From NCBI RefSeq assembly GCF_048403405.1, contig NZ_CP183129.1: a stretch of 64,000 nt of DNA; one strand, 5' to 3'. Both the position numbers and the translations under genes were made by a program. The notes beneath the pieces were generated by a model that did no database searches, was not told where the DNA came from, and saw only the letters and a program-made list of their open reading frames with translations. Shown here piece by piece: positions 2-18,364 of the stretch (positions are counted from its first letter, which is position 1; the number at the start of each line of letters is the position of its first letter). The stretch comes from Escherichia coli (lineage in GTDB: Bacteria > Pseudomonadota > Gammaproteobacteria > Enterobacterales > Enterobacteriaceae).

Positions 2-387
2 AAAGTGATTACCGATATTGCCGGCAGTTCCGCCTGGTTTGAACGCGGATTTGTCACCTACAGTAACGAAGCGAAAGCGCAAATGATCGGTGTACGCGAA
101 GAGACGCTGGCGCAGCATGGCGCGGTGAGCGAACCTGTCGTGGTGGAAATGGCGATAGGCGCACTGAAAGCGGCTCGTGCTGATTATGCTGTGTCTATTA
201 GTGGTATCGCCGGGCCGGATGGCGGCAGTGAAGAGAAGCCTGTCGGCACCGTCTGGTTTGCTTTTGCCACCGCCCGCGGCGAAGGTATTACCCGGCGGGA
301 ATGCTTCAGCGGTGACCGTGATGCGGTGCGTCGTCAGGCTACTGCGTATGCATTGCAGACCTTGTGGCAACAATTTCTACAAAACAC

Positions 388-391
<4 letters not shown>
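2..391 (+). CDS. pncC: NMN amidohydrolase PncC (CinA-like C-terminal domain), 5'-truncated by window edge
   Basis: Frame runs in from window start and stops at TGA 389-391; translation (..GIAGPDGGSEEKPVGTVWFAF..) looks like CinA/PncC C-terminal domain; lies immediately upstream of recA as in E. coli. Confidence 0.8.
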
Positions 392-1532
<1,141 letters not shown>

Positions 1533-1552
1533 TCGTCTTGTTTGATACACAA

Positions 1553-1582
1553 GGGTCGCATCTGCGGCCCTTTTGCTTTTTT
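1553..1582 (+). terminator. Partial intrinsic terminator between recA and recX
   Basis: GC hairpin gggtcgcatctgcggccc followed by ttttgctttttt directly after recA stop. Confidence 0.5.
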
Positions 1583-1600
1583 AAGTTGTAAGGATATGCC

Positions 1601-2101
1601 ATGACAGAATCAACGTCCCGTCGCCCGGCATATGCTCGCCTGTTGGATCGTGCGGTACGCATTCTGGCGGTGCGCGATCACAGTGAGCAAGAACTGCGAC
1701 GTAAACTCGCGGCACCGATTATGGGCAAAAATGGCCCGGAAGAGATTGATGCCACGGCAGAAGATTACGAGCGCGTTATCGCCTGGTGCCATGAACATGG
1801 CTATCTCGATGACAGCCGATTTGTTGCGCGCTTTATCGCCAGCCGTAGCCGCAAAGGTTATGGACCTGCGCGTATTCGTCAGGAACTGAATCAGAAAGGT
1901 ATTTCCCGCGAAGCGACAGAAAAAGCGATGCGTGAATGTGACATCGACTGGTGCGCACTGGCGCGCGATCAGGCGACGCGAAAATATGGCGAACCTTTGC
2001 CAACTGTCTTTTCAGAAAAAGTTAAGATCCAGCGTTTTCTGCTCTATCGTGGCTATCTGATGGAAGATATCCAGGATATTTGGCGAAATTTTGCCGACTG
2101 A
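1601..2101 (+). CDS. recX: RecA regulator RecX
   Basis: 166-aa ORF immediately downstream of recA; translation [36 protein letters not shown].. typical of RecX. Confidence 0.93.
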
Positions 2102-2228
2102 ACGCATACGGTATTTTACTTCCCAGTCAAGAAAACTTATCTTATTCCCACTTTTCAGTTACCAGCCCGGCGGTTAAGACACGCTGGAGCTGGTGGCGAT
2201 ATTTCGTTAGCTTGATTTCAGGATAATT

Positions 2229-4859
2229 ATGAGCAAGAGCACCGCTGAGATCCGTCAGGCGTTTCTCGACTTTTTCCATAGTAAGGGACATCAGGTAGTT
2301 GCCAGCAGCTCCCTGGTACCCCATAACGACCCAACTTTGTTGTTTACCAACGCCGGGATGAACCAGTTCAAGGATGTGTTCCTTGGGCTCGACAAGCGTA
2401 ATTATTCCCGCGCTACCACTTCCCAACGCTGCGTGCGTGCGGGTGGTAAACACAACGACCTGGAAAACGTCGGTTACACCGCGCGTCATCATACCTTCTT
2501 CGAAATGCTGGGCAACTTCAGCTTCGGCGACTATTTCAAACACGATGCCATTCAGTTTGCATGGGAACTGCTGACCAGTGAAAAATGGTTTGCCCTGCCG
2601 AAAGAGCGTCTGTGGGTTACCGTCTATGAAAGCGACGACGAAGCCTACGAAATCTGGGAAAAAGAAGTAGGGATCCCGCGCGAACGTATTATTCGCATCG
2701 GCGATAACAAAGGTGCGCCATACGCATCTGACAACTTCTGGCAGATGGGTGACACTGGTCCGTGCGGCCCGTGCACCGAAATCTTCTACGATCACGGCGA
2801 CCACATTTGGGGTGGCCCTCCGGGAAGTCCGGAAGAAGACGGCGATCGCTACATTGAGATCTGGAACATCGTCTTCATGCAGTTCAACCGCCAGGCAGAT
2901 GGCACGATGGAACCGCTGCCGAAGCCGTCTGTAGATACCGGTATGGGTCTGGAGCGTATTGCTGCGGTGCTGCAACACGTTAACTCTAACTATGACATCG
3001 ACCTGTTCCGCACGCTGATCCAGGCGGTAGCGAAAGTCACTGGCGCGACCGATCTGAGCAATAAATCGCTGCGCGTAATCGCTGACCACATTCGTTCTTG
3101 TGCGTTCCTGATCGCGGATGGCGTAATGCCGTCCAATGAAAACCGTGGTTATGTACTGCGTCGTATCATTCGTCGCGCAGTGCGTCACGGCAATATGCTG
3201 GGCGCGAAAGAAACCTTCTTCTACAAACTGGTTGGTCCGCTGATCGACGTAATGGGCTCTGCGGGTGAAGACCTGAAACGCCAGCAGGCGCAGGTTGAGC
3301 AGGTGCTGAAGACTGAAGAAGAGCAGTTTGCCCGTACTCTGGAGCGCGGTCTGGCGCTGCTGGATGAAGAGCTGGCAAAACTTTCTGGTGATACGCTGGA
3401 TGGTGAAACGGCTTTCCGTCTGTACGACACCTATGGCTTCCCGGTTGACCTGACGGCTGATGTTTGTCGTGAGCGCAACATCAAAGTTGACGAAGCTGGT
3501 TTCGAAGCAGCAATGGAAGAGCAGCGTCGTCGCGCGCGCGAAGCCAGCGGCTTTGGTGCCGATTACAACGCAATGATCCGTGTTGACAGTGCATCTGAAT
3601 TTAAAGGCTATGACCATCTGGAACTGAACGGCAAAGTGACCGCGCTGTTTGTTGATGGTAAAGCGGTTGATGCCATCAATGCAGGCCAGGAAGCTGTGGT
3701 CGTGCTGGATCAAACGCCATTCTATGCGGAATCCGGCGGTCAGGTTGGCGATAAAGGCGAACTGAAAGGCGCTAACTTCTCCTTTGCGGTGGAAGATACG
3801 CAGAAATACGGCCAGGCGATTGGTCACATCGGTAAACTTGCTGCGGGTTCTCTGAAAGTGGGCGACGCGGTGCAGGCGGATGTTGATGAGGCTCGTCGCG
3901 CCCGTATTCGTCTGAATCACTCCGCAACGCACCTGATGCACGCTGCGCTGCGCCAGGTTCTGGGTACTCATGTATCGCAGAAAGGTTCACTGGTTAACGA
4001 CAAAGTGCTGCGCTTCGACTTCTCACACAACGAAGCGATGAAACCGGAAGAGATTCGTGCGGTCGAAGACCTGGTGAACGCACAGATTCGTCGCAATTTG
4101 CCTATCGAAACCAACATCATGGATCTCGAAGCGGCGAAAGCGAAAGGCGCTATGGCGCTGTTCGGCGAGAAGTATGATGAGCGCGTACGCGTGCTGAGCA
4201 TGGGCGATTTCTCCACCGAGCTGTGTGGCGGTACTCACGCCAGCCGCACTGGTGATATTGGTCTGTTCCGCATCATCTCTGAATCGGGTACTGCTGCAGG
4301 CGTTCGTCGTATCGAAGCGGTAACCGGAGAAGGCGCTATCGCCACCGTTCATGCAGACAGCGATCGCTTAAGCGAAGTCGCACATCTGCTGAAAGGCGAT
4401 AGCAATAATCTGGCTGATAAAGTGCGTTCAGTACTGGAACGTACGCGTCAGCTGGAAAAAGAACTACAACAGCTTAAAGAACAAGCTGCCGCACAGGAGA
4501 GCGCAAATCTTTCCAGTAAGGCAATTGATGTTAATGGTGTTAAGCTGTTGGTTAGCGAGCTTAGCGGTGTTGAGCCGAAAATGTTGCGTACCATGGTTGA
4601 CGATTTAAAAAATCAGCTGGGGTCGACAATTATCGTGCTGGCAACGGTAGCCGAAGGTAAGGTTTCTCTGATTGCAGGCGTATCTAAGGACGTCACAGAT
4701 CGTGTGAAAGCAGGGGAACTGATTGGTATGGTCGCTCAGCAGGTGGGCGGCAAGGGTGGTGGACGTCCTGACATGGCGCAAGCCGGTGGTACGGATGCTG
4801 CGGCCTTACCTGCAGCGTTAGCCAGTGTGAAAGGCTGGGTCAGCGCGAAATTGCAATAA
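2229..4859 (+). CDS. alaS: Alanine--tRNA ligase
   Basis: 876-aa ORF; class II aaRS motifs, translation [24 protein letters not shown]..; conserved position downstream of recX. Confidence 0.97.
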
Positions 4860-5093
4860 TATAAGCGTCAGGCAATGCCGTGGACTCGCTTCACGGCATT
4901 CGCATTAACGCTATCGACAACGATAAAGTCAGGTTGAAGTTGTGTATATCGGCTAAACTTAGGTTTAACAGAATGTAATGCCATGACTGCTTACATGTAA
5001 TGTGTTTGTCATTGCTTACTTTTTGGCGTTATATGATGGATAATGCCGGGATACAGAGAGACCCGACTCTTTTAATCTTTCAAGGAGCAAAGA

Positions 5094-5279
5094 ATGCTGA
5101 TTCTGACTCGTCGAGTTGGTGAGACCCTCATGATTGGGGATGAGGTCACCGTGACAGTTTTAGGGGTAAAGGGCAACCAGGTACGTATTGGCGTAAATGC
5201 CCCGAAGGAAGTTTCTGTTCACCGTGAAGAGATCTACCAGCGTATCCAGGCTGAAAAATCCCAGCAGTCCAGTTACTAA
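5094..5279 (+). CDS. csrA: Carbon storage regulator CsrA (RNA-binding)
   Basis: 61-aa [51 protein letters not shown].. is the canonical CsrA sequence. Confidence 0.96.
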
Positions 5280-5504
5280 TCTTTCCGCGTCTCATCTTTA
5301 TCGGTGAGACGCACCCTCAAAATTTCTCCTTCACTCTATAGTCTTTTCGCTTTACTCCCGTTCATTCAACTTAAGTCTCCATTTTTTTGCATTACTGCTA
5401 TCTGACAGACCTCCGTTTTTCTGTTGATAAAACACTCTTTTTGACGTTTTTACAGACTAATTGAGCGTGAAGTGTGCAAACGATAAAAGTGTGGGAAAAA
5501 TTGT

Positions 5505-5532
5505 TTGACTTATAAGTCTCAGAAAGTAATAT
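5505..5532 (+). promoter_or_regulatory. Candidate sigma70 promoter of the serV-argVYZQ tRNA operon
   Basis: -35 ttgact (5505-5510), 16-nt spacer, -10 taatat (5527-5532), followed by GC-rich discriminator gtgcgcc typical of stringently controlled stable-RNA promoters. Confidence 0.45.
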
Positions 5533-5594
5533 GTGCGCCACGCAGCGACGATGAGCGATAAACAAGTTCTTCGAAGCACTCGTAAGAGGCGTGT

Positions 5595-5687
5595 GGTGAG
5601 GTGGCCGAGAGGCTGAAGGCGCTCCCCTGCTAAGGGAGTATGCGGTCAAAAGCTGCATCCGGGGTTCGAATCCCCGCCTCACCGCCA
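5595..5687 (+). tRNA. serV: tRNA-Ser (anticodon GCU)
   Basis: 93-nt cloverleaf with long variable arm, anticodon loop ctgctaa, ends in CCA; first gene of the cluster. Confidence 0.92.
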
Positions 5688-5690
5688 TTT

Positions 5691-5767
5691 GCATCCGTAG
5701 CTCAGCTGGATAGAGTACTCGGCTACGAACCGAGCGGTCGGAGGTTCGAATCCTCCCGGATGCACCA
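5691..5767 (+). tRNA. argV: tRNA-Arg (anticodon ACG)
   Basis: 77-nt sequence gcatccgtagctcagctggatagagtactcggctacgaaccgagcggtcggaggttcgaatcctcccggatgcacca; anticodon loop ctacgaa; copy name assigned by position. Confidence 0.9.
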
Positions 5768-5901
5768 TATTCTACGTACTTTCAGCGATGAAGGTATGGA
5801 AGAGGTGGCGGTAATAACCGCAGGCACCAGGGAGGATAACGTTGCTTTAGCAACGGCCCGAAGGGCGAGCCGCAAGGCGAGTAATCCTCCCGGATGCACC
5901 A
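5768..5901 (+). repeat. tRNA-Arg 3'-end-bearing paralogous element, copy A
   Basis: 134-nt element after the first tRNA-Arg, ending in a second copy of the tRNA-Arg 3' end (..tcctcccggatgcacca); paralogous to copy B at 6323-6455. Confidence 0.6.
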
Positions 5902-5965
5902 TCTCTTACTTGATACGGCTTTAGTAGCGGTATCAAAAAATCTGCAGTAAAGTAAGTTTCCCGAT

Positions 5966-6042
5966 GCATCCGTAGCTCAGCTGGATAGAGTACTCGGCTA
6001 CGAACCGAGCGGTCGGAGGTTCGAATCCTCCCGGATGCACCA
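5966..6042 (+). tRNA. argY: tRNA-Arg (anticodon ACG)
   Basis: Identical 77-nt tRNA-Arg sequence; copy name assigned by position. Confidence 0.88.
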
Positions 6043-6105
6043 TCTCTTACTTGATATGGCTTTAGTAGCGGTATCAATATCAGCAGTAAAATAAATTTTC
6101 CCGAT

Positions 6106-6182
6106 GCATCCGTAGCTCAGCTGGATAGAGTACTCGGCTACGAACCGAGCGGTCGGAGGTTCGAATCCTCCCGGATGCACCA
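6106..6182 (+). tRNA. argZ: tRNA-Arg (anticodon ACG)
   Basis: Identical 77-nt tRNA-Arg sequence; copy name assigned by position. Confidence 0.88.
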
Positions 6183-6245
6183 TCTCTTACTTGATATGGC
6201 TTTAGTAGCGATATCAATATCAGCAGTAAAATAAGTTTTCCCGAT

Positions 6246-6322
6246 GCATCCGTAGCTCAGCTGGATAGAGTACTCGGCTACGAACCGAGCGGTCGGAGGT
6301 TCGAATCCTCCCGGATGCACCA
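6246..6322 (+). tRNA. argQ: tRNA-Arg (anticodon ACG)
   Basis: Identical 77-nt tRNA-Arg sequence; copy name assigned by position. Confidence 0.88.
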
Positions 6323-6455
6323 TATTCTCCGTAATCTTCAGCAATGAAGGTATCGAAGAGGTAGCGGTATTAACCGCAGGCACCAGGGAGGATAACGTTG
6401 CGCCAGCAACGGCCCGAAGGGCGAACGCCAGTGAGTCATCCTCCCGGATGCACCA
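6323..6455 (+). repeat. tRNA-Arg 3'-end-bearing paralogous element, copy B
   Basis: 133-nt element after the last tRNA-Arg, about 85 percent identical to copy A and likewise ending in tcctcccggatgcacca. Confidence 0.6.
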
Positions 6456-6602
6456 TCATCTCCAAAAAATTTCCTTCAAAAATATCTCATTTCTAAATAA
6501 CTACTTTATCCATTTCCTGAATTTTCTTCTCCTTCGCCATCAGCGACAAAATCAAGCAATTACGCTAAAGTAGCGTCATATTTTTCGACTTGCGAGAAGA
6601 CC

Positions 6603-7169
6603 ATGTACGAGCGTTATGCAGGTTTAATTTTTGATATGGATGGCACAATCCTGGATACGGAGCCTACGCACCGTAAAGCGTGGCGCGAAGTATTAGGGCA
6701 CTACGGTCTTCAGTACGATGTTCAGGCGATGATTGCGCTTAATGGCTCGCCCACCTGGCGTATTGCTCAGGCAATTATTGAGCTGAATCAGGCCGATCTC
6801 GACCCGCATGCGTTAGCGCGTGAAAAAACAGAAGCAGTAAGAAGTATGCTGCTGGATAGTGTCGAGCCGCTTCCTCTTGTTGAAGTGGTGAAAAGTTGGC
6901 ATGGTCGTCGCCCAATGGCTGTAGGAACGGGGAGTGAAAGCGTCATCGCTGAGGCATTGCTGGCGCACCTGGGATTACGCCGTTATTTTGACGCTGTCGT
7001 CGCTGCTGATCACGTCAAACACCATAAACCCGCGCCAGACACATTTTTGTTGTGCGCGCAGCGTATGGGCGTGCAACCGACACAGTGTGTGGTCTTTGAA
7101 GATGCCGATTTCGGTATTCAGGCGGCCCGTGCAGCAGGCATGGACGCTGTGGATGTTCGCTTGCTGTGA
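6603..7169 (+). CDS. yqaB: HAD-family sugar phosphatase (fructose-1-phosphate phosphatase)
   Basis: 188-aa ORF with HAD motif I FDMDGTILDTE near the N-terminus; conserved position. Confidence 0.9.
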   Translation: MYERYAGLIFDMDGTILDTEPTHRKAWREVLGHYGLQYDVQAMIALNGSPTWRIAQAIIELNQADLDPHALAREKTEAVRSMLLDSVEPLPLVEVVKSWHGRRPMAVGTGSESVIAEALLAHLGLRRYFDAVVAADHVKHHKPAPDTFLLCAQRMGVQPTQCVVFEDADFGIQAARAAGMDAVDVRLL

Positions 7170-7594
7170 GTGAAGCGTTATCGCTTTTCTCGTTGTTTGC
7201 CAGTAGTTTTCTCAGCGCTACACTATTACCCGGCAACTCCGAAGTCGTGCTGGTGGCAATGTTGCTTTCCGGGATCAGTCATCCCTGGGTTTTAGTTTTA
7301 ACAGCAACAATGGGTAATAGCCTTGGAGGGTTAACTAACGTTATCCTTGGGCGTTTCTTTCCATTGCGTAAAACATCGCGCTGGCAAGAGAAAGCTACCG
7401 GCTGGCTGAAACGCTATGGTGCAGTCACGCTATTATTAAGCTGGATGCCCGTGGTTGGCGATTTACTGTGTCTGTTAGCGGGATGGATGCGCATCTCGTG
7501 GGGACCGGTAATCTTTTTTTTGTGCCTTGGTAAAGCGTTACGCTATGTTGCAGTTGCAGCAGCTACCGTTCAGGGCATGATGTGGTGGCACTAA
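7166..7594 (+). CDS. yqaA: DedA/SNARE-associated family inner membrane protein
   Basis: 142-aa hydrophobic ORF overlapping yqaB stop by 4 nt; conserved position. Confidence 0.88.
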   Translation: MSEALSLFSLFASSFLSATLLPGNSEVVLVAMLLSGISHPWVLVLTATMGNSLGGLTNVILGRFFPLRKTSRWQEKATGWLKRYGAVTLLLSWMPVVGDLLCLLAGWMRISWGPVIFFLCLGKALRYVAVAAATVQGMMWWH

Positions 7595-13426: not shown

Positions 13427-13762
13427 TTATATAATCGCCATCACTTTCCAGGCGAGCCCATAGGCCAGCGCACTAAGCAGTGTTGGGATGATAATGCTGC
13501 GTGTTTTATAGAAACTGGCACCCAGTACCGCGAAGCCGACCAGCGTGGGCACGAAACGGCGTGTATCGTGCATCACTTCTGGTGCGGTAGAGACAACCAG
13601 CAGAGCGCATATCGAGGCGATGCCAATGGTGTCGAGCAATATGCCTATCGCGCCACGTTTGGTTGGGCGGGCATTACCCACACGCAGGCGCAGCGGCAAA
13701 TAGCGGAAGCAATAATTCGCCGCGCCAATCAGTAACCCAAGCAGCAGAACCTCATAGCTCAT
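13427..13762 (-). CDS. ygaH: Branched-chain amino acid (valine) exporter small subunit (AzlD family)
   Basis: 111-aa hydrophobic ORF overlapping the ygaZ stop by 11 nt. Confidence 0.9.
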
Positions 13763-14489
13763 CGGGCGCTCCTTGCCAGAATGCCTGGATTAACGCAGTG
13801 AGGCAGCCACAGACAATGCCTGCCAGAATGGCGACGGGAATAGAAAATAGCGTTACGCCTGCAAGGGCACCAACTAACGCTGCGGTAACGCAAAGAGATT
13901 GTTTGCGCTGGAAAGAGGCGAGCAGGAAACTCATAAAGAGTGCCGGAAGCATAAAACCTAATGCAGCTTCAACGGCGGGATAACCTTGCAGCAAGCCGCT
14001 GCCGGAGAATGCCCCTATTACCGTACCAAATACCCACGATGACCATGAACTGAAGGCAATGCCGATCATCCAGTTCTCGCTCCAGCGGCGATTATTGCGT
14101 ACCAGTTTTGCGGTTGCGGCGGCAAAAACCTCATCCGTCAGGCCAAATGCCCACAGGGCGGTTTTCGATTTTTGCAGACGCTGGATAATACGGCTACGCA
14201 GTGACGGGCCATACAAAACATGGCGAACATCCATTGCCATGACGGTCAGTGCAGCAACCCACAAACTACTCCCGGCTGCCAGCATCGCGGTAATGACGAA
14301 CTGGCTCGCGCCTGCATAAATGATGCAGGAGAAAAAAACGCTTTCGAGAGGAGAGAATCCCAGACGGGTCGCATTCAGACCGAACGCAAAGGCCACCGGA
14401 ATATAACTAATAACAATCGGTAAACTGTCTTTGCATCCTTCCATGAAGGTCGCCGAACCAGGAGCAGGCTGTGGAGTAGGGCTTTCCAT
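13752..14489 (-). CDS. ygaZ: Branched-chain amino acid exporter large subunit (AzlC family)
   Basis: 245-aa polytopic membrane ORF upstream of ygaH. Confidence 0.9.
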
Positions 14490-14612: not shown

Positions 14613-15797
14613 TTAATTTGCAGCTTCCTGACGATGAAAACCTCGCCACCAGACCAGTAAGTTAACCAGGGCAATCGTCGCGCCAGCCAGACAAACGCCA
14701 GCCCAACCGCCATGTTGCCAGGCTGAGGCTGAAATTAGCGAACCGGCGGCACCGCCAATAAAGTAGCTGGTCATGTATCCTGCGGTCAGGCGATTACGCG
14801 CATCAGGATGTATTCGATAAATTACCGTCTGGTTAGTGATATGCACGCCCTGTACGGTGAGATCCAGCACCAGGATGCCGATAATCAAGGCCAGTACGGA
14901 AGTGTGGCCAAACCAGATCGCCAGCCATGAAAGTAATAGCAGCAGCAGACCGAAAGTAGTGGTGTGGTGCGATTTACCCTTATCGGCAAAACCGCCCGCC
15001 GGACGAGCACCCAACGCTCCGGCAGCTCCCGCAAGTCCAAACAGACCAATTACACCATCGCTGTAGTTAAAAGGTGGAGCGGCAAGCAAAAAGGCCATTG
15101 AGGTCCAGAGAATGCTGAAGTTGGCAAAGGTCAGGCAGCCCAGCAACGCGCGGGTGCGCAGAATTTTATCGCTGATAAACATGCTGAAAACGGAACCAAG
15201 CAACTGTGGGTAGTTGAGGTGGGTTTCTGATTTCATTTGTGGCAGACCACGCCATAATGCCAGCGCCATCAGTGCCATTAACACCGAGGCAACCCAAAAG
15301 ACGGTGCGCCAGCCGCCGAGGTTTGCCAGCAACCCGGCAACGGTTCGTGCCAGCAAGATCCCCAACAGCAGCCCGCTCATAATGGTGCCGACCACTTTGC
15401 CGCGTTTATCCGGTGAAGCCAGCGTCGCTGCCAGCGGAACCAGAATTTGTGCCACGACTGAGAATAAACCGGTTAATGCCGTACCGAGGATCATCATCGC
15501 CAGTGACTGACTGCTGGCAGTAATTAACATGCCGCCTGCCGCCAGTAAGGTCATCGAGACAATCAGGCGGCGACGTTCAAACATATCACCGAGGGGAACA
15601 AGAAACAGCAGACCTGCGGCATAGCCCAACTGTGCGGCGGTAACAATAAAGCCTGCCGAACTGGCGGAAAGGGAAAAGTTACGCGCGATGGTGTCGAGCA
15701 ATGGCTGGGCGTAATAGTTACTGGCTACCGCCAGACCGGTGGCGATAGACATCAGCACGATCAGCGCCGGGCTAAGCTCATGATTAGGTTTAGTCAT
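14613..15797 (-). CDS. ygaY: MFS transporter (intact here)
   Basis: 394-aa uninterrupted ORF with 12-TM MFS architecture between ygaZ and proX. Confidence 0.85.
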   Translation of the reverse strand: MTKPNHELSPALIVLMSIATGLAVASNYYAQPLLDTIARNFSLSASSAGFIVTAAQLGYAAGLLFLVPLGDMFERRRLIVSMTLLAAGGMLITASSQSLAMMILGTALTGLFSVVAQILVPLAATLASPDKRGKVVGTIMSGLLLGILLARTVAGLLANLGGWRTVFWVASVLMALMALALWRGLPQMKSETHLNYPQLLGSVFSMFISDKILRTRALLGCLTFANFSILWTSMAFLLAAPPFNYSDGVIGLFGLAGAAGALGARPAGGFADKGKSHHTTTFGLLLLLLSWLAIWFGHTSVLALIIGILVLDLTVQGVHITNQTVIYRIHPDARNRLTAGYMTSYFIGGAAGSLISASAWQHGGWAGVCLAGATIALVNLLVWWRGFHRQEAAN

Positions 15798-16249
15798 TAT
15801 TTTTGTTCATCAGGTGATGATTAAGCTGGAAATCAATAATAGCGGATGTTGATGAATGTGGGGCGAAAGATAGATTGTTAAAATGTGCGGGTAATGGGGA
15901 GAGGGTATTTGAAGGTGAAATATGCCACTAAGGCAAATGTTACGTTCACTTCCAGACTATAGCTACTTTGTCACTATTTTGCTGGTGAACGTGCCAGGGT
16001 GGCTCAGTCGCCACCACCCTGGCGACCCAGGCTTTTGGCACAAAATCGCCGCTACGCGGTACATTCGACTTATTTCTTACGGCTATCGGGTACGGGCGCG
16101 AGGTAACATCCCTGTAAGACGCGCCCTCGCCGCGCATCCCTGCGCGTCGCCCCGGCCTTCAGAAAACGTCTCATCGATTTTCAGCCGGATTAAAACCATC
16201 GCTGCAATTGTTTTACTCACATGAGCATTATCTGCGCGGTTATCAATAT

Positions 16250-17242
16250 TTACTTCTGCGCTGCCAGCGCCTCATTCACCCAGCCATCGAACTGCTGCTG
16301 GTGGGCTTTGATCCAACCATCAACGTGGCCCTGAATATCGCCTTCTGAGGCTTTGCCTTCATGCATAATGGCGTTCTGGGCGTTAATATCTGCCACTGGC
16401 AACTGCATAATGGCAAACAGTTTGGCTGCCGCCGGATTTTTCTCGGCCCAGGCTTTGTTGGCAACGATATGCATGGTGCTGACCGGGAAGCCGTAATTCG
16501 CGCCATTCGGCAGTTTGGTATCGGCATTTTTATCGCCCGGCAGTGCGGAGAACGGCACCTGCAACCAGACCACATCTTTCCCCGGTTTCAGTTCGTTACT
16601 CACCCAGTACGGCGTCCAGGTGTAGTAAAACACCGGCTTACCCTCTTTGTAACGACTGATGGTGTCAGCCATCATCGCTGCGTAGTTCCCCTGATTATGC
16701 GTCACGGTATTGGTCAGTTCATACGCAGCAAGCTGGTGGTTGATCGCACCTTCGCAGCCCCAGCCTGGGTTACAGCCGGTTAAATCCGCTTTACCGTCGC
16801 CGTTGGTATCGAACAGTTTGGCGATCTTCGGATCTTTAAGTTGCGCGATGTTGGTAATTTTGTACTGGTCGGCAGTTTTCTTATCGATCAGGTAACCTTG
16901 TGCCGCGCCGTTAACAAATACCCCTTCACGATAAAATTTCTTATCGCCACCGGCAGCTTCGTACATGTTGTCATGCAGCGGCGTCCAGTTTACGGCGGTA
17001 AAGGTCGCATCGCCGGAAGCAAGCGAGGTGTAGCCAACGTTGTAATCCACTTCGCTGGGTTTATTGACGGTATAACCTAATTTCTCCAGTGCACGACTGA
17101 CCAGCAGCGTCTGGAAGGTTTCTTCAGTGATGGTGCTCTGAACTGGATTAACAGTAATGCCTTTGCCCGGCAGATCGGCGGCAAAAGTTTGTGTAGAGAT
17201 AAGCGTGGCAAACGCTGTCGCAAAAAGTACGCTATGTCGCAT
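16250..17242 (-). CDS. proX: Glycine betaine/proline ABC transporter periplasmic binding protein
   Basis: ORF track 16250-17284; ATG at 17242 gives signal peptide [21 protein letters not shown]; last gene of proVWX. Confidence 0.94.
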
Positions 17243-17299
17243 TGTTATTCCTTTTTTTGGCAGGGTGATAATGCCCGGCGTCACCGGGCAAGTGCAGAG

Positions 17300-18364
17300 T
17301 TACTTAATGAATGGGCGGGTCAGCAGACCGACAGGGCCAGTGGTGTACCAGCGACGGTTGCCGCGACTGCGTGAGTCGCGCCCAACGGCCTGCGTCAGGC
17401 GGTCGAGGATAATGGCGAGGATCACAATCCCGACGCCGCCAACGGTGGCAAGCCCCATATCCAGACGACCGATACCGCGCAGAACCATCTGACCCAGCCC
17501 GCCGACGGCAATCATCGAGGCGATGACTACCATAGAAAGAGCCAGCATCAGCGTCTGGTTAACGCCCGCCATAATGGTCGGCATCGCCAGCGGTAACTGA
17601 ACTTTGAACAGCATCTGGCGCGGGCTGGCACCGAATGAGCGCGAGGCTTCAATCAGATCCGCCGGAACCTGGTTAATCCCCAGAATCGTCAGACGGATAA
17701 TCGGCGGCAGAGCAAAGATGATCGTCACCACCACGCCCGGCACGTTACCGATACCAAACAGCATGACGATTGGTACCAGATAAACAAACGCTGGCGTGGT
17801 CTGCATGGCATCAAGCAGTGGACGAATAATTTTCGCCGCTCGCGGACTTCTCGCCAGCCAGATCCCCAACGGCAAACCGATGACGATACAGAACAGCAGG
17901 GCGGTTAACACCAGCGCCAGGGTAACCATGGCCTGCGACCAGGCACCGATTGCGCCGATGGCAATCAGCGAAACCAGAGTCGCCACGCCCATTCCGACCC
18001 CGGAAATCTGCCAGGCGATGAGAGCGAAAACGATAATCGCCACTGGCGCTGGCATACCCAGCAGCAATTGCTGGAAACCGTTGAGGATATAATCAACCGG
18101 AACGCGCACGCCCTGGAAGACGGGACGGAAATGGGTAACGACCCAGTCGATCCCTTCAGTGACCCAACTGTCGAGCGGGATCAGCGTTTTATGGAACGGA
18201 TCGAGAATATTAAAATGCTCGACGTTTGGCGCAGGCGTACTGGTCAGCCAGTCAGCACCACCGCCGTCAGTCGGTGCAGCAGCCGGTGTACCCCAGGCGT
18301 CTGCGGACTGTGCGGCACTGTCCGCCGCTGGCGTGGTATCCCACGGATTATTTTGATCAGCCAT
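17300..18364 (-). CDS. proW: Glycine betaine/proline ABC transporter permease
   Basis: 354-aa ORF with ABC permease TM core; overlaps proV stop by 8 nt. Confidence 0.94.

What the first reader, a model, noticed from the sequence alone, without database searches (positions are those of the whole stretch)
14613..15797. ygaY encodes an intact 394-aa MFS transporter
The ORF is uninterrupted with a full 12-helix MFS architecture. From memory the K-12 ygaY locus is annotated as a pseudogene, so this strain may keep a functional transporter of unknown substrate next to the ygaZH exporter and proU.
Basis: partly seen in the sequence, partly recalled or inferred. Interest (0 to 1): 0.3.

Follow-up and report, generated by a model that had tools for sequence, protein, structure and literature searches.

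The report
Intact ygaY transporter; only K-12 broken

Summary
The ORF is real: window 14613-15797, minus strand, ATG to TAA, 394 aa. It is a clear MFS protein (Pfam MFS_1, 142 bits) with a confident 12-helix model (pLDDT 95.5) that superposes on SotB, MdfA and NorA. K-12 ygaY (b2681) is annotated as a pseudogene. The lesion is loss of one copy of a tandem heptamer, GGCGGCA GGCGGCA (window 15530-15543). This shifts the frame inside TM3 and stops translation after codon 88.

The intact state is not special to this strain. The locus is in 5418 of 5426 complete E. coli genomes. Only 457 carry the K-12 junction, and every one sampled is a K-12 laboratory derivative. The window's protein is identical to RefSeq WP_000165699.1, as in BL21(DE3). 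Putting the 7 bp back into K-12 gives the same protein. Citrobacter keeps a 93%-identical orthologue in the same gene order. dN/dS is about 0.01-0.04, so the gene is under strong constraint and very probably functional.

TCDB lists YgaY as 2.A.1.36.3 (YnfM family), function unknown. The substrate and the direction of transport remain inferred.

Separately, the proX-ygaY spacer holds a covariation-supported structured repeat that is not in Rfam.

The parts
14613..15797 (-). ygaY coding sequence, intact, 394 aa. It encodes a 12-TM MFS transporter identical to RefSeq WP_000165699.1.
15530..15543 (-). Tandem heptamer GGCGGCA GGCGGCA (CDS nt 255-268, codons 85-90, inside TM3). K-12 retains only one copy, which is the inactivating 7-bp deletion.
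   Evidence: K-12 junction probe
15798..15889 (-). A 92-bp segment immediately upstream of ygaY that is shared with K-12 and BL21. It presumably holds the ygaY promoter and leader, but no consensus sigma-70 site was found by the simple scan. It overlaps a 6-codon uORF (15790-15810) that runs into the ygaY start.
   Evidence: the promoter role is inferred, not shown
15890..16249 (-). Strain-variable part of the proX-ygaY spacer. It is unrelated to the REP-containing spacer of K-12 (191 bp in total) and BL21 (291 bp). This version sits at this locus in about 547 of 5426 genomes.
15930..16200 (-). Structured dispersed-repeat element within the spacer (approximate ends). The core is 15981-16191. 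Two GGA-loop hairpins lie at 16132-16145 and 16094-16126, and a 3' hairpin at 15994-22. It is not part of ygaY itself.
13752..14489 (-). ygaZ (L-valine exporter subunit, AzlC family), 123 bp downstream of ygaY. It has its own promoter-like site at 14544-14516.
13427..13762 (-). ygaH (L-valine exporter subunit, AzlD family).
16250..17242 (-). proX (glycine betaine/proline ABC transporter binding protein), upstream neighbour of ygaY. The annotated CDS is 993 bp.

Best explanation
Window 14613-15797 (minus strand) is the wild-type, functional allele of ygaY. It encodes a 12-helix major-facilitator secondary transporter of the YnfM family (TCDB 2.A.1.36.3). This is the ancestral state, shared by almost all E. 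coli, other Escherichia species and Citrobacter. The K-12 laboratory lineage alone lost one copy of a 7-bp tandem repeat, most simply by replication slippage, which frameshifts the gene inside TM3 and truncates the product at 88 residues.

Shown here: the frame is intact, the fold is a complete MFS fold, the protein is identical to RefSeq WP_000165699.1, the nature and position of the K-12 lesion are established, purifying selection is strong, and gene order is conserved.

Inferred: the protein works by alternating access driven by the proton-motive force, and probably uses the near-invariant membrane-embedded Asp312 (TM10) and Arg151 (TM5). It more likely exports than imports a small organic solute. 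The reasons are that its characterised paralogue YnfM exports glutarate and other dicarboxylates, that its nearest solved folds are DHA1 exporters, and that it sits in a conserved row of exporters (ygaZH, emrRAB). The substrate is unknown.

My confidence is about 0.9 that this is the intact, functional wild-type allele, and about 0.45 that it is an exporter.
For: The window DNA is 100% identical to E. coli TUM14771, where the gene product is WP_000165699.1, and BL21(DE3) and strain 25-07233 carry the same protein accession. K-12 is annotated as a pseudogene or frameshifted. The 7-bp deletion falls within GGCGGCA x2 at CDS nt 255-268, and the K-12 frame stops after codon 88. Repaired K-12 gives an identical protein; dN/dS is about 0.01 within E. 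coli and 0.04 against Citrobacter, with 26 amino-acid differences at dS of about 1.1. The locus is present in 5418 of 5426 complete genomes. The K-12 junction is present in 457, and all 19 sampled are K-12-sized laboratory derivatives. The exact protein occurs on at least 1000 contigs, with orthologues at 93-98% identity in E. fergusonii, E. albertii, E. marmotae and Citrobacter. Citrobacter has the same order, nrdEF-proVWX-ygaY-ygaZH-emrR-emrAB. The family is large, with 1144 50%-identity clusters at E<=1e-30, and its near-invariant residues include D71, R151, D272, D312 and R336. The model has pLDDT 95.5 and matches SotB, MdfA and NorA at TM-score 0.83-0.87. YgaY aligns with YnfM at 26% identity over the full length, E=2e-20. 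TCDB placement is from PMC5417439. YnfM is reported as a CCCP-sensitive glutarate exporter in PMC12622518.
Against: There is no experimental evidence for expression or transport by intact YgaY in any strain. The simple scan found no consensus sigma-70 promoter in the 92 bp upstream of ygaY, and by eye no obvious Shine-Dalgarno sequence precedes the ATG. The DHA1 'antiporter' motif C (G-x-x-x-G-P-x-x-G-G in TM5, recalled from memory) is not evident; TM5 reads VVGTIMSGLLLGILLAR. Every NCBIfam exporter model is far below its cut-off. In BL21(DE3), which has an intact ygaY, deleting ynfM alone abolished detectable glutarate export (PMC12622518), so YgaY is not a redundant glutarate exporter under those conditions. 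A YnfM orthologue has been claimed to be a copper importer (PMC13101709), so direction of transport within the family is not settled. Distant homologues have no conserved gene neighbours that would suggest a substrate.
Confidence: 0.85

Rival explanations
1. YgaY is a proton-coupled importer, of a nutrient, an osmolyte-related compound or a metal, rather than an exporter.
For: The MFS fold does not fix the direction of transport. The DHA1 antiporter motif C is not evident in TM5. The best partial NCBIfam hits include symporter families such as the aromatic acid:H+ symporters, but all are below cut-off. A YnfM orthologue (CuiT) is claimed to import copper (PMC13101709). The gene lies next to the proU uptake system.
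Against: The closest full-length sequence and fold matches among solved structures are exporters: SotB, EmrD, MdfA and NorA. The characterised paralogue YnfM exports glutarate. The conserved downstream neighbours are exporters. No uptake phenotype has been reported.
Confidence: 0.3
2. The reading frame is intact, but the gene is silent or on its way to decay, so it is dispensable and effectively non-functional, as its loss in K-12 might suggest.
For: K-12 grows normally without it, and its locus is used routinely as a neutral integration site and control. One natural isolate has deleted ygaY through ygaZ. No strong promoter or ribosome-binding site is evident. H-NS binding at ygaY is reported in some ChIP data.
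Against: There are 32-35 synonymous and no amino-acid differences between divergent E. coli alleles, and dN/dS is about 0.04 against Citrobacter at saturating dS. The gene keeps its 394-aa length across Escherichia and Citrobacter. The locus is present in 5418 of 5426 genomes, and 36 of 40 evenly sampled rows have intact length. A gene free of selection would not stay this clean.
Confidence: 0.07
3. YgaY is a DHA1-type multidrug efflux pump that contributes to drug resistance and works alongside EmrAB next door.
For: The best fold matches are the DHA1 pumps SotB, MdfA and NorA. It shows full-length but weak similarity to the Cmx/CmrA, Bcr/CflA and EmrD models. Genome papers list it among putative efflux pumps. 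It is adjacent to emrRAB.
Against: All drug-pump models score 8- to 20-fold below their curated cut-offs. Sequence identity to the solved pumps is only 15-18%. TCDB places it in 2.A.1.36, not in DHA1 (2.A.1.2). Motif C is absent. No resistance phenotype is reported.
Confidence: 0.12

Closest known systems
E. coli K-12 ygaY (b2681), annotated pseudogene
   Same: It is the same locus, with the same flanking genes and 97.2% DNA identity. Once the 7 bp are restored, the encoded protein is identical.
   Different: K-12 lacks one copy of the GGCGGCA heptamer, so its frame breaks in TM3 and stops after codon 88. The window copy is uninterrupted. The spacer upstream also differs (191 bp with one REP in K-12, 452 bp in the window).
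RefSeq WP_000165699.1 'MFS transporter' (for example BL21(DE3) B21_RS13210 and TUM14771 QVN10_RS09715)
   Same: The amino-acid sequence is identical (394 aa) and the genomic position is the same.
   Different: Nothing differs at protein level. The window's DNA allele differs from BL21 at 36 nucleotide positions, none of which changes an amino acid.
YnfM (E. coli b1596), type member of TCDB family 2.A.1.36; reported glutarate/dicarboxylate exporter
   Same: It is a 12-TM MFS protein of similar length that aligns end to end with YgaY (26% identity, E=2e-20), and TCDB places both in the same family.
   Different: It is only a distant paralogue. The YgaY-clade near-invariant Asp312 in TM10 aligns to a non-acidic residue in YnfM. 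In BL21, YgaY does not replace YnfM for glutarate export. The YgaY substrate is unknown.
DHA1 drug/sugar:H+ antiporters with solved structures (SotB 6KKK, MdfA 4ZP0, NorA 8TTF)
   Same: The overall fold is the same: two six-helix bundles, TM-score 0.83-0.87 over about 385 aligned positions.
   Different: Sequence identity is 15-18%, no curated DHA1 model reaches its threshold, and the TM5 antiporter motif is not evident.

Membership tests
Major Facilitator Superfamily (Pfam PF07690 MFS_1) | Match to the MFS_1 profile above Pfam's gathering score | tested here: met
   142.2 bits against a cut-off of 33.4, E=2.6e-41
Major Facilitator Superfamily (Pfam PF07690 MFS_1) | Twelve transmembrane helices arranged as two six-helix bundles | tested here: met
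   AF2 model with pLDDT 95.5 and helices TM1-6, a linker and TM7-12; Foldseek TM-score 0.83-0.87 to 12-TM MFS structures; hydropathy
Major Facilitator Superfamily (Pfam PF07690 MFS_1) | Motif A (G-x-x-x-D-R/K-x-G-R-R/K) in the TM2-TM3 loop (consensus recalled from memory) | tested here: met
   Residues 67-80 read VPLGDMFERRRLIV. G70 and D71 are at least 90% conserved in the 82-sequence alignment. A second, weaker copy lies in the TM8-TM9 loop (GGFADKG, with D272 conserved).
TCDB 2.A.1.36 Acriflavin-sensitivity (YnfM) family | Significant full-length sequence similarity to YnfM | tested here: met
   BLASTP against MG1655 YnfM: 26% identity over 409 columns, E=2e-20
TCDB 2.A.1.36 Acriflavin-sensitivity (YnfM) family | Curated TCDB assignment of YgaY (P76628) as 2.A.1.36.3 | not testable with these tools
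   TCDB could not be queried. The assignment is quoted in PMC5417439.
TCDB 2.A.1.36 Acriflavin-sensitivity (YnfM) family | Family phenotype: acriflavine sensitivity or dicarboxylate (glutarate/succinate) export | not testable with these tools
   This needs experiments. Indirect evidence against redundancy with YnfM for glutarate in BL21 comes from PMC12622518.
DHA1 drug:H+ antiporter family (TCDB 2.A.1.2) | Antiporter motif C (G-x-x-x-G-P-x-x-G-G) in TM5 (consensus recalled from memory) | tested here: not met
   TM5 reads VVGTIMSGLLLGILLARTVAGL with no G-P..G-G. The family consensus is the same at these positions.
DHA1 drug:H+ antiporter family (TCDB 2.A.1.2) | Score above the curated cut-off of an NCBIfam DHA1 model (Bcr/CflA, EmrD, Cmx/CmrA, sugar efflux PRK03545) | tested here: not met
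   Best scores are 63.8 against 401, 52.5 against 400, 50.4 against 200.9 and 38.1 against 479 bits.
K-12-type ygaY pseudogene allele | Single copy of the GGCGGCA heptamer (7-bp deletion) causing a frameshift | tested here: not met
   The window has both copies at 15530-15543 and an open frame. It is therefore the intact allele.
Rfam RF01731 TwoAYGGAY RNA (applies to the spacer element, not to ygaY) | Covariance-model score at or above the gathering threshold of 43 bits | tested here: not met
   The window copy scores 28.2 bits and the E. coli paralogues 31.5 and 29.1 bits. The Enterobacter, Leclercia, Silvania and Trabulsiella copies gave no hit at E<=0.1.
Rfam RF01731 TwoAYGGAY RNA (applies to the spacer element, not to ygaY) | Two adjacent hairpins with AYGGAY terminal loops | tested here: inconclusive
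   Two adjacent hairpins are present and supported by covariation. Their loops read AGGGAU or AUGGAU, so they fit the motif only partly, and the model's outer stem is missing.

The most novel reading that the evidence does not exclude
The most novel reading concerns the region upstream of ygaY rather than the gene. In this strain the usual REP spacer between proX and ygaY is replaced by a copy of an uncatalogued, multi-copy structured element of Enterobacteriaceae (core about 210 nt). Its two covariation-supported hairpins present GGA in their loops, much like high-affinity CsrA sites and the core of the TwoAYGGAY motif. If this element is transcribed as the proX 3' tail or the ygaY leader, it could bind CsrA or otherwise alter expression of the intact transporter. 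It would then represent an undescribed family of mobile regulatory RNA. For ygaY itself, the most novel reading is only that a strongly constrained orphan transporter has been invisible to every K-12-based screen.
Probability: 0.15. Interest if true: 0.5.

Novelty: already known. Interest (0 to 1): 0.1.

Why it matters
The practical consequence is modest. YgaY belongs to a large, well-conserved MFS subfamily (more than 1000 clusters at 50% identity) whose substrate is unknown. K-12 is a natural null mutant, so K-12 collections such as Keio and ASKA, and transporter screens built on them, cannot reveal its function. BL21/B strains or wild isolates, or an MG1655 with the 7 bp restored, are the right backgrounds to use. 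Conversely, using ygaY as a 'neutral' integration site or control is justified only in K-12. None of this is surprising to a specialist: the pseudogene status in K-12 and the intact RefSeq protein elsewhere are both already annotated.

Tried and rejected
1. A census of intact alleles with a 42-nt probe across the two-copy heptamer found only 1656 genomes. SNPs in the flanks break megablast's 28-mer seed, so this is a lower bound and I did not use it as a count. I relied instead on the K-12 junction probe and on the aligned lengths in an evenly spaced sample.

2. Genomic context of distant YgaY-clade members (57%, 50% and 46% identity) showed unrelated neighbours and no conserved regulator or enzyme, so it gave no substrate clue.

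3. NCBIfam has no equivalog for this protein; all 25 hits are far below their cut-offs.

4. The promoter and terminator scan found nothing convincing upstream of ygaY. The only good sigma-70-like site belongs to ygaZ.

5. Rfam found nothing within ygaY.

6. Four literature searches (ygaY alone, and ygaY with 'pseudogene', 'ygaZ' or 'transporter') found no functional study of an intact YgaY.

7. I considered whether the heptamer acts as a phase-variation switch and rejected it. There are only two repeat copies, and the deletion was seen only in K-12 derivatives.

8. For the side element, I checked for plasmid or phage carriage. There is none: the four 'plasmid' hits are megabase-sized records. 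Two or three hits of the pattern scan (Stenotrophomonas and two MAGs) do not align and look like chance matches.

Full report
**Observation.** It matches Pfam MFS_1 at 142 bits against a cut-off of 33.4, and matches the MFS_4 profile end to end. Hydropathy shows six clear helices in the N-terminal half and several glycine-rich ones in the C-terminal half. An AlphaFold2 model built on 82 diverse homologues is very confident (pLDDT 95.5, pTM 0.93). It shows two six-helix bundles joined by a short linker helix. Foldseek superposes about 385 positions on the 12-TM transporters SotB, MdfA and NorA at TM-score 0.83-0.87. The claim of a full 12-helix MFS architecture is therefore confirmed. The neighbours are as described, all on the minus strand: emrA, emrR, ygaH, ygaZ, ygaY, proX, proW, proV.

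**The K-12 comparison.** The MG1655 reference record annotates ygaY (b2681) as a pseudogene of 1178 bp. PGAP calls the copy in K-12 HMS174 'MFS transporter, frameshifted'. Aligning the window, K-12 and BL21(DE3) genes shows one indel. The intact genes carry a tandem heptamer, GGCGGCA GGCGGCA, at CDS nt 255-268 (window 15530-15543), and K-12 has only one copy. The deletion lies in TM3, just after motif A. The K-12 frame ends after codon 88, and the rest of the protein continues in another frame. When I re-inserted the 7 bp in silico, the K-12 product became identical to the window's protein. The deletion is therefore the only defect and must be recent. Loss of one unit of a short tandem repeat points to replication slippage, but that is an inference.

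**How common each allele is.** The locus is present in 5418 of 5426 complete E. coli genomes, and at 80% coverage or more in 5413.
- A 47-nt probe spanning the K-12 deletion junction matched exactly in 457 genomes. All 19 of those shown in an evenly spaced sample are K-12 or laboratory derivatives with 4.58-4.70 Mb chromosomes.
- In the evenly spaced sample, 36 of 40 rows had the intact length, three were K-12 derivatives and one carried a deletion.
- The one row with 11 extra bases turned out to have an intact gene, with the extra bases in the spacer.
- The one partial row is a seawater isolate that has lost ygaY through ygaZ.
- The window's DNA is 100% identical to strain TUM14771. There the product is RefSeq WP_000165699.1, the same accession as in BL21(DE3) and strain 25-07233.
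- The exact protein occurs on at least 1000 contigs in the large protein collection. Orthologues of 394 aa at 93-98% identity occur in Shigella, E. fergusonii, E. marmotae, E. albertii and Citrobacter.
- Citrobacter has the same gene order, nrdEF-proVWX-ygaY-ygaZH-emrR-emrAB.

The intact gene is thus the ancestral, near-universal state, and K-12 is the exception. My attempt at a direct census with an intact-junction probe undercounted because of flanking SNPs, so I did not use it.

**Evidence that the gene is functional.** The window allele differs from BL21 at 36 nucleotide positions and from repaired K-12 at 33, with no amino-acid change in either case. Against Citrobacter there are 26 amino-acid differences at a synonymous divergence of about 1.1. 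This gives dN/dS of about 0.01 and 0.04. The single 'non-synonymous' step counted within E. coli is an artefact of a two-step Leu-to-Leu codon path. Such constraint is not compatible with a decaying gene. Transcripts of the K-12 locus have been detected by RT-qPCR (PMC10656529 and its preprint). I found no expression data for intact alleles.

**What it probably does.**
- TCDB lists YgaY (P76628) as 2.A.1.36.3, in the Acriflavin-sensitivity (YnfM) family, with function 'Unknown' (quoted in PMC5417439).
- I tested the family link directly. YgaY aligns end to end with MG1655 YnfM at 26% identity, E=2e-20.
- YnfM has been reported as the glutarate exporter of E. coli BL21(DE3), sensitive to CCCP, and as a dicarboxylate exporter in Corynebacterium (PMC12622518). 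An orthologue in Salmonella and Pseudomonas has been claimed to import copper (PMC13101709).
- YgaY heads a large subfamily of its own, with 1144 clusters at 50% identity at E<=1e-30. Its near-invariant residues include Asp71 (motif A), Arg151 (mid-TM5), Asp272, Asp312 (mid-TM10) and Arg336. Asp312 is not conserved in YnfM.

My best reading is a proton-motive-force-driven alternating-access transporter. It is more likely an exporter of a small organic solute, given its paralogue, its nearest solved folds and the conserved row of exporters around it.

This part is inference, and there is real evidence against it. The DHA1 antiporter motif in TM5 is absent. No curated NCBIfam model comes near its threshold. 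In BL21, which has an intact ygaY, deletion of ynfM alone abolished glutarate export. Distant homologues have no conserved neighbours.

**Novelty.** Nothing about the gene itself is new. The K-12 pseudogene is annotated and is widely used as a neutral locus. The intact protein is a RefSeq entry, and the family placement is in TCDB. The point of practical value is that K-12 is a natural null, so its genetic resources cannot reveal YgaY's function.

**Surroundings: a structured repeat in the proX-ygaY spacer.** The spacer is polymorphic: 191 bp with one REP in K-12, 291 bp with two in BL21, and 452 bp in the window. About 360 bp of the window's spacer (15890-16249) are unrelated to the other two. 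This version occupies the locus in about 547 genomes. A core of about 210 bp has copies at 82-84% identity between asmA and yegH in about 1400 other genomes. There, a segment of about 350 bp carrying the element is inverted between strains, and in one of them it is bracketed by inverted REPs.

A pattern scan of one genome per species found 39 loci, up to six per genome, in Enterobacter, Leclercia, Silvania, Trabulsiella, Lelliottia and several Escherichia species. In Enterobacter the conserved unit is about 430 bp and has inverted-repeat-like ends.

Across 29 non-identical copies the consensus fold has 58 pairs.
- 98.7% of cells are paired, against 37-40% when the partners are slid by 1-3 columns.
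- 20 pairs carry compensatory double changes, against 2-7 when slid.
- None of 500 shuffles reaches the observed values.
- Frequent G-U pairs favour the strand that is co-oriented with proX and ygaY.

Two adjacent hairpins (window 16132-16145 and 16094-16126) present GGA in their loops. One reads UUACAGGGAUGU, which resembles the CsrA SELEX consensus RUACARGGAUGU as I recall it (my own knowledge, not checked here). Rfam's only match is a sub-threshold hit to the core of TwoAYGGAY (28-31 bits against 43). That motif has been proposed to sequester CsrA (PMC4333381). The element is chromosomal only. This is outside the finding I was given and its function is untested, but it is the more interesting object in this stretch.

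**Verdict.** Interest is low.

Noticed in passing
window ~15930-16200 (minus strand); core 15981-16191; hairpins 16132-16145 and 16094-16126; 3' hairpin 15994-16022: A structured dispersed-repeat element sits in the proX-ygaY spacer. It is multi-copy in Enterobacter, Leclercia, Silvania, Trabulsiella, Lelliottia and Escherichia species (39 loci, L016-L054). The consensus fold has 58 pairs, 20 with compensatory double changes, and 98.7% of cells paired against about 39% when slid. Two hairpins have GGA loops that resemble CsrA sites and the TwoAYGGAY core. It is below threshold for every Rfam 15 family and is chromosomal only.
   Followed up: partly
window 15798-16249 compared with L001 2902-3092 and L003 802-1092: The proX-ygaY spacer is polymorphic: 191 bp (one REP) in K-12, 291 bp (two REPs) in BL21 and 452 bp in the window. 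Homology resumes 92 bp upstream of the ygaY ATG. The window-type spacer is at this locus in about 547 of 5426 complete genomes.
   Followed up: yes
L008 2405-2855 and L009 2375-2833 (asmA-yegH intergenic region of other E. coli strains): A segment of about 350 bp carrying the paralogous copy of the element is inverted between two strains (92.9% identity in reverse orientation). In L009 it is bracketed by inverted REP copies, which suggests REP-mediated inversion or independent insertion.
   Followed up: partly
L024-L029, L036, L039-L041, L018 (Enterobacter and Lelliottia copies): In Enterobacter the conserved unit is about 430 bp. It has extra 5' and 3' segments, inverted-repeat-like ends (GGGAGAGGAATCCCCAGTAA... 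and ...TTTTGTGGGGATCC-CTCTCCC) and adjacent CCCTCTCCC/GGGAGAGGG hairpins, so it resembles a MITE. Target-site duplications were not examined.
   Followed up: partly
window 14613-18364 compared with MG1655 (L005): There is a divergent haplotype block. proW, proX and ygaY differ from K-12 by 2.4-3.4%, while ygaZ and emrR differ by only 0.2-0.5%. Only 6 of 5418 genomes are at least 99% identical to the window across ygaY. All ygaY differences are silent. This is probably a recombination tract, and the divergent spacer lies inside it.
   Followed up: partly
window 15790-15810 (minus strand): A six-codon uORF (ATG AAC AAA AAT AAT GAC TAA) overlaps the ygaY start codon out of frame. No obvious Shine-Dalgarno sequence precedes either ATG. 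It could be translational coupling or chance.
   Followed up: no
L011 (E. coli PCP06021, seawater, Galapagos) 3093-3555: A rare natural deletion removes the 3' part of ygaY, all of ygaZ and the start of ygaH. It is the only non-K-12 lesion met in the sample.
   Followed up: no
protein P0001: A 596-aa metagenome protein scores higher against YgaY (1092 bits) than the self-match (834 bits) at 73% identity. This suggests a partial internal duplication or an assembly or gene-call artefact.
   Followed up: no
L037 2696-2906 (Trabulsiella guamensis): One copy of the element lies about 200 bp from a C4 antisense RNA and its a1/b1 targets, with isrK-like RNA hits typical of P1/P7-like prophages. The element may sit at a prophage border there.
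   Followed up: no
window 14544-14516 (minus strand): The best sigma-70-like site in the region (TTAAGA, 17-nt spacer, TATAAT; 10 of 12 matches) lies in the 123-bp ygaY-ygaZ gap. ygaZH therefore probably has its own promoter and need not be co-transcribed with ygaY. A laboratory-evolution study recorded a point mutation in this gap in K-12 (PMC4786092).
   Followed up: no
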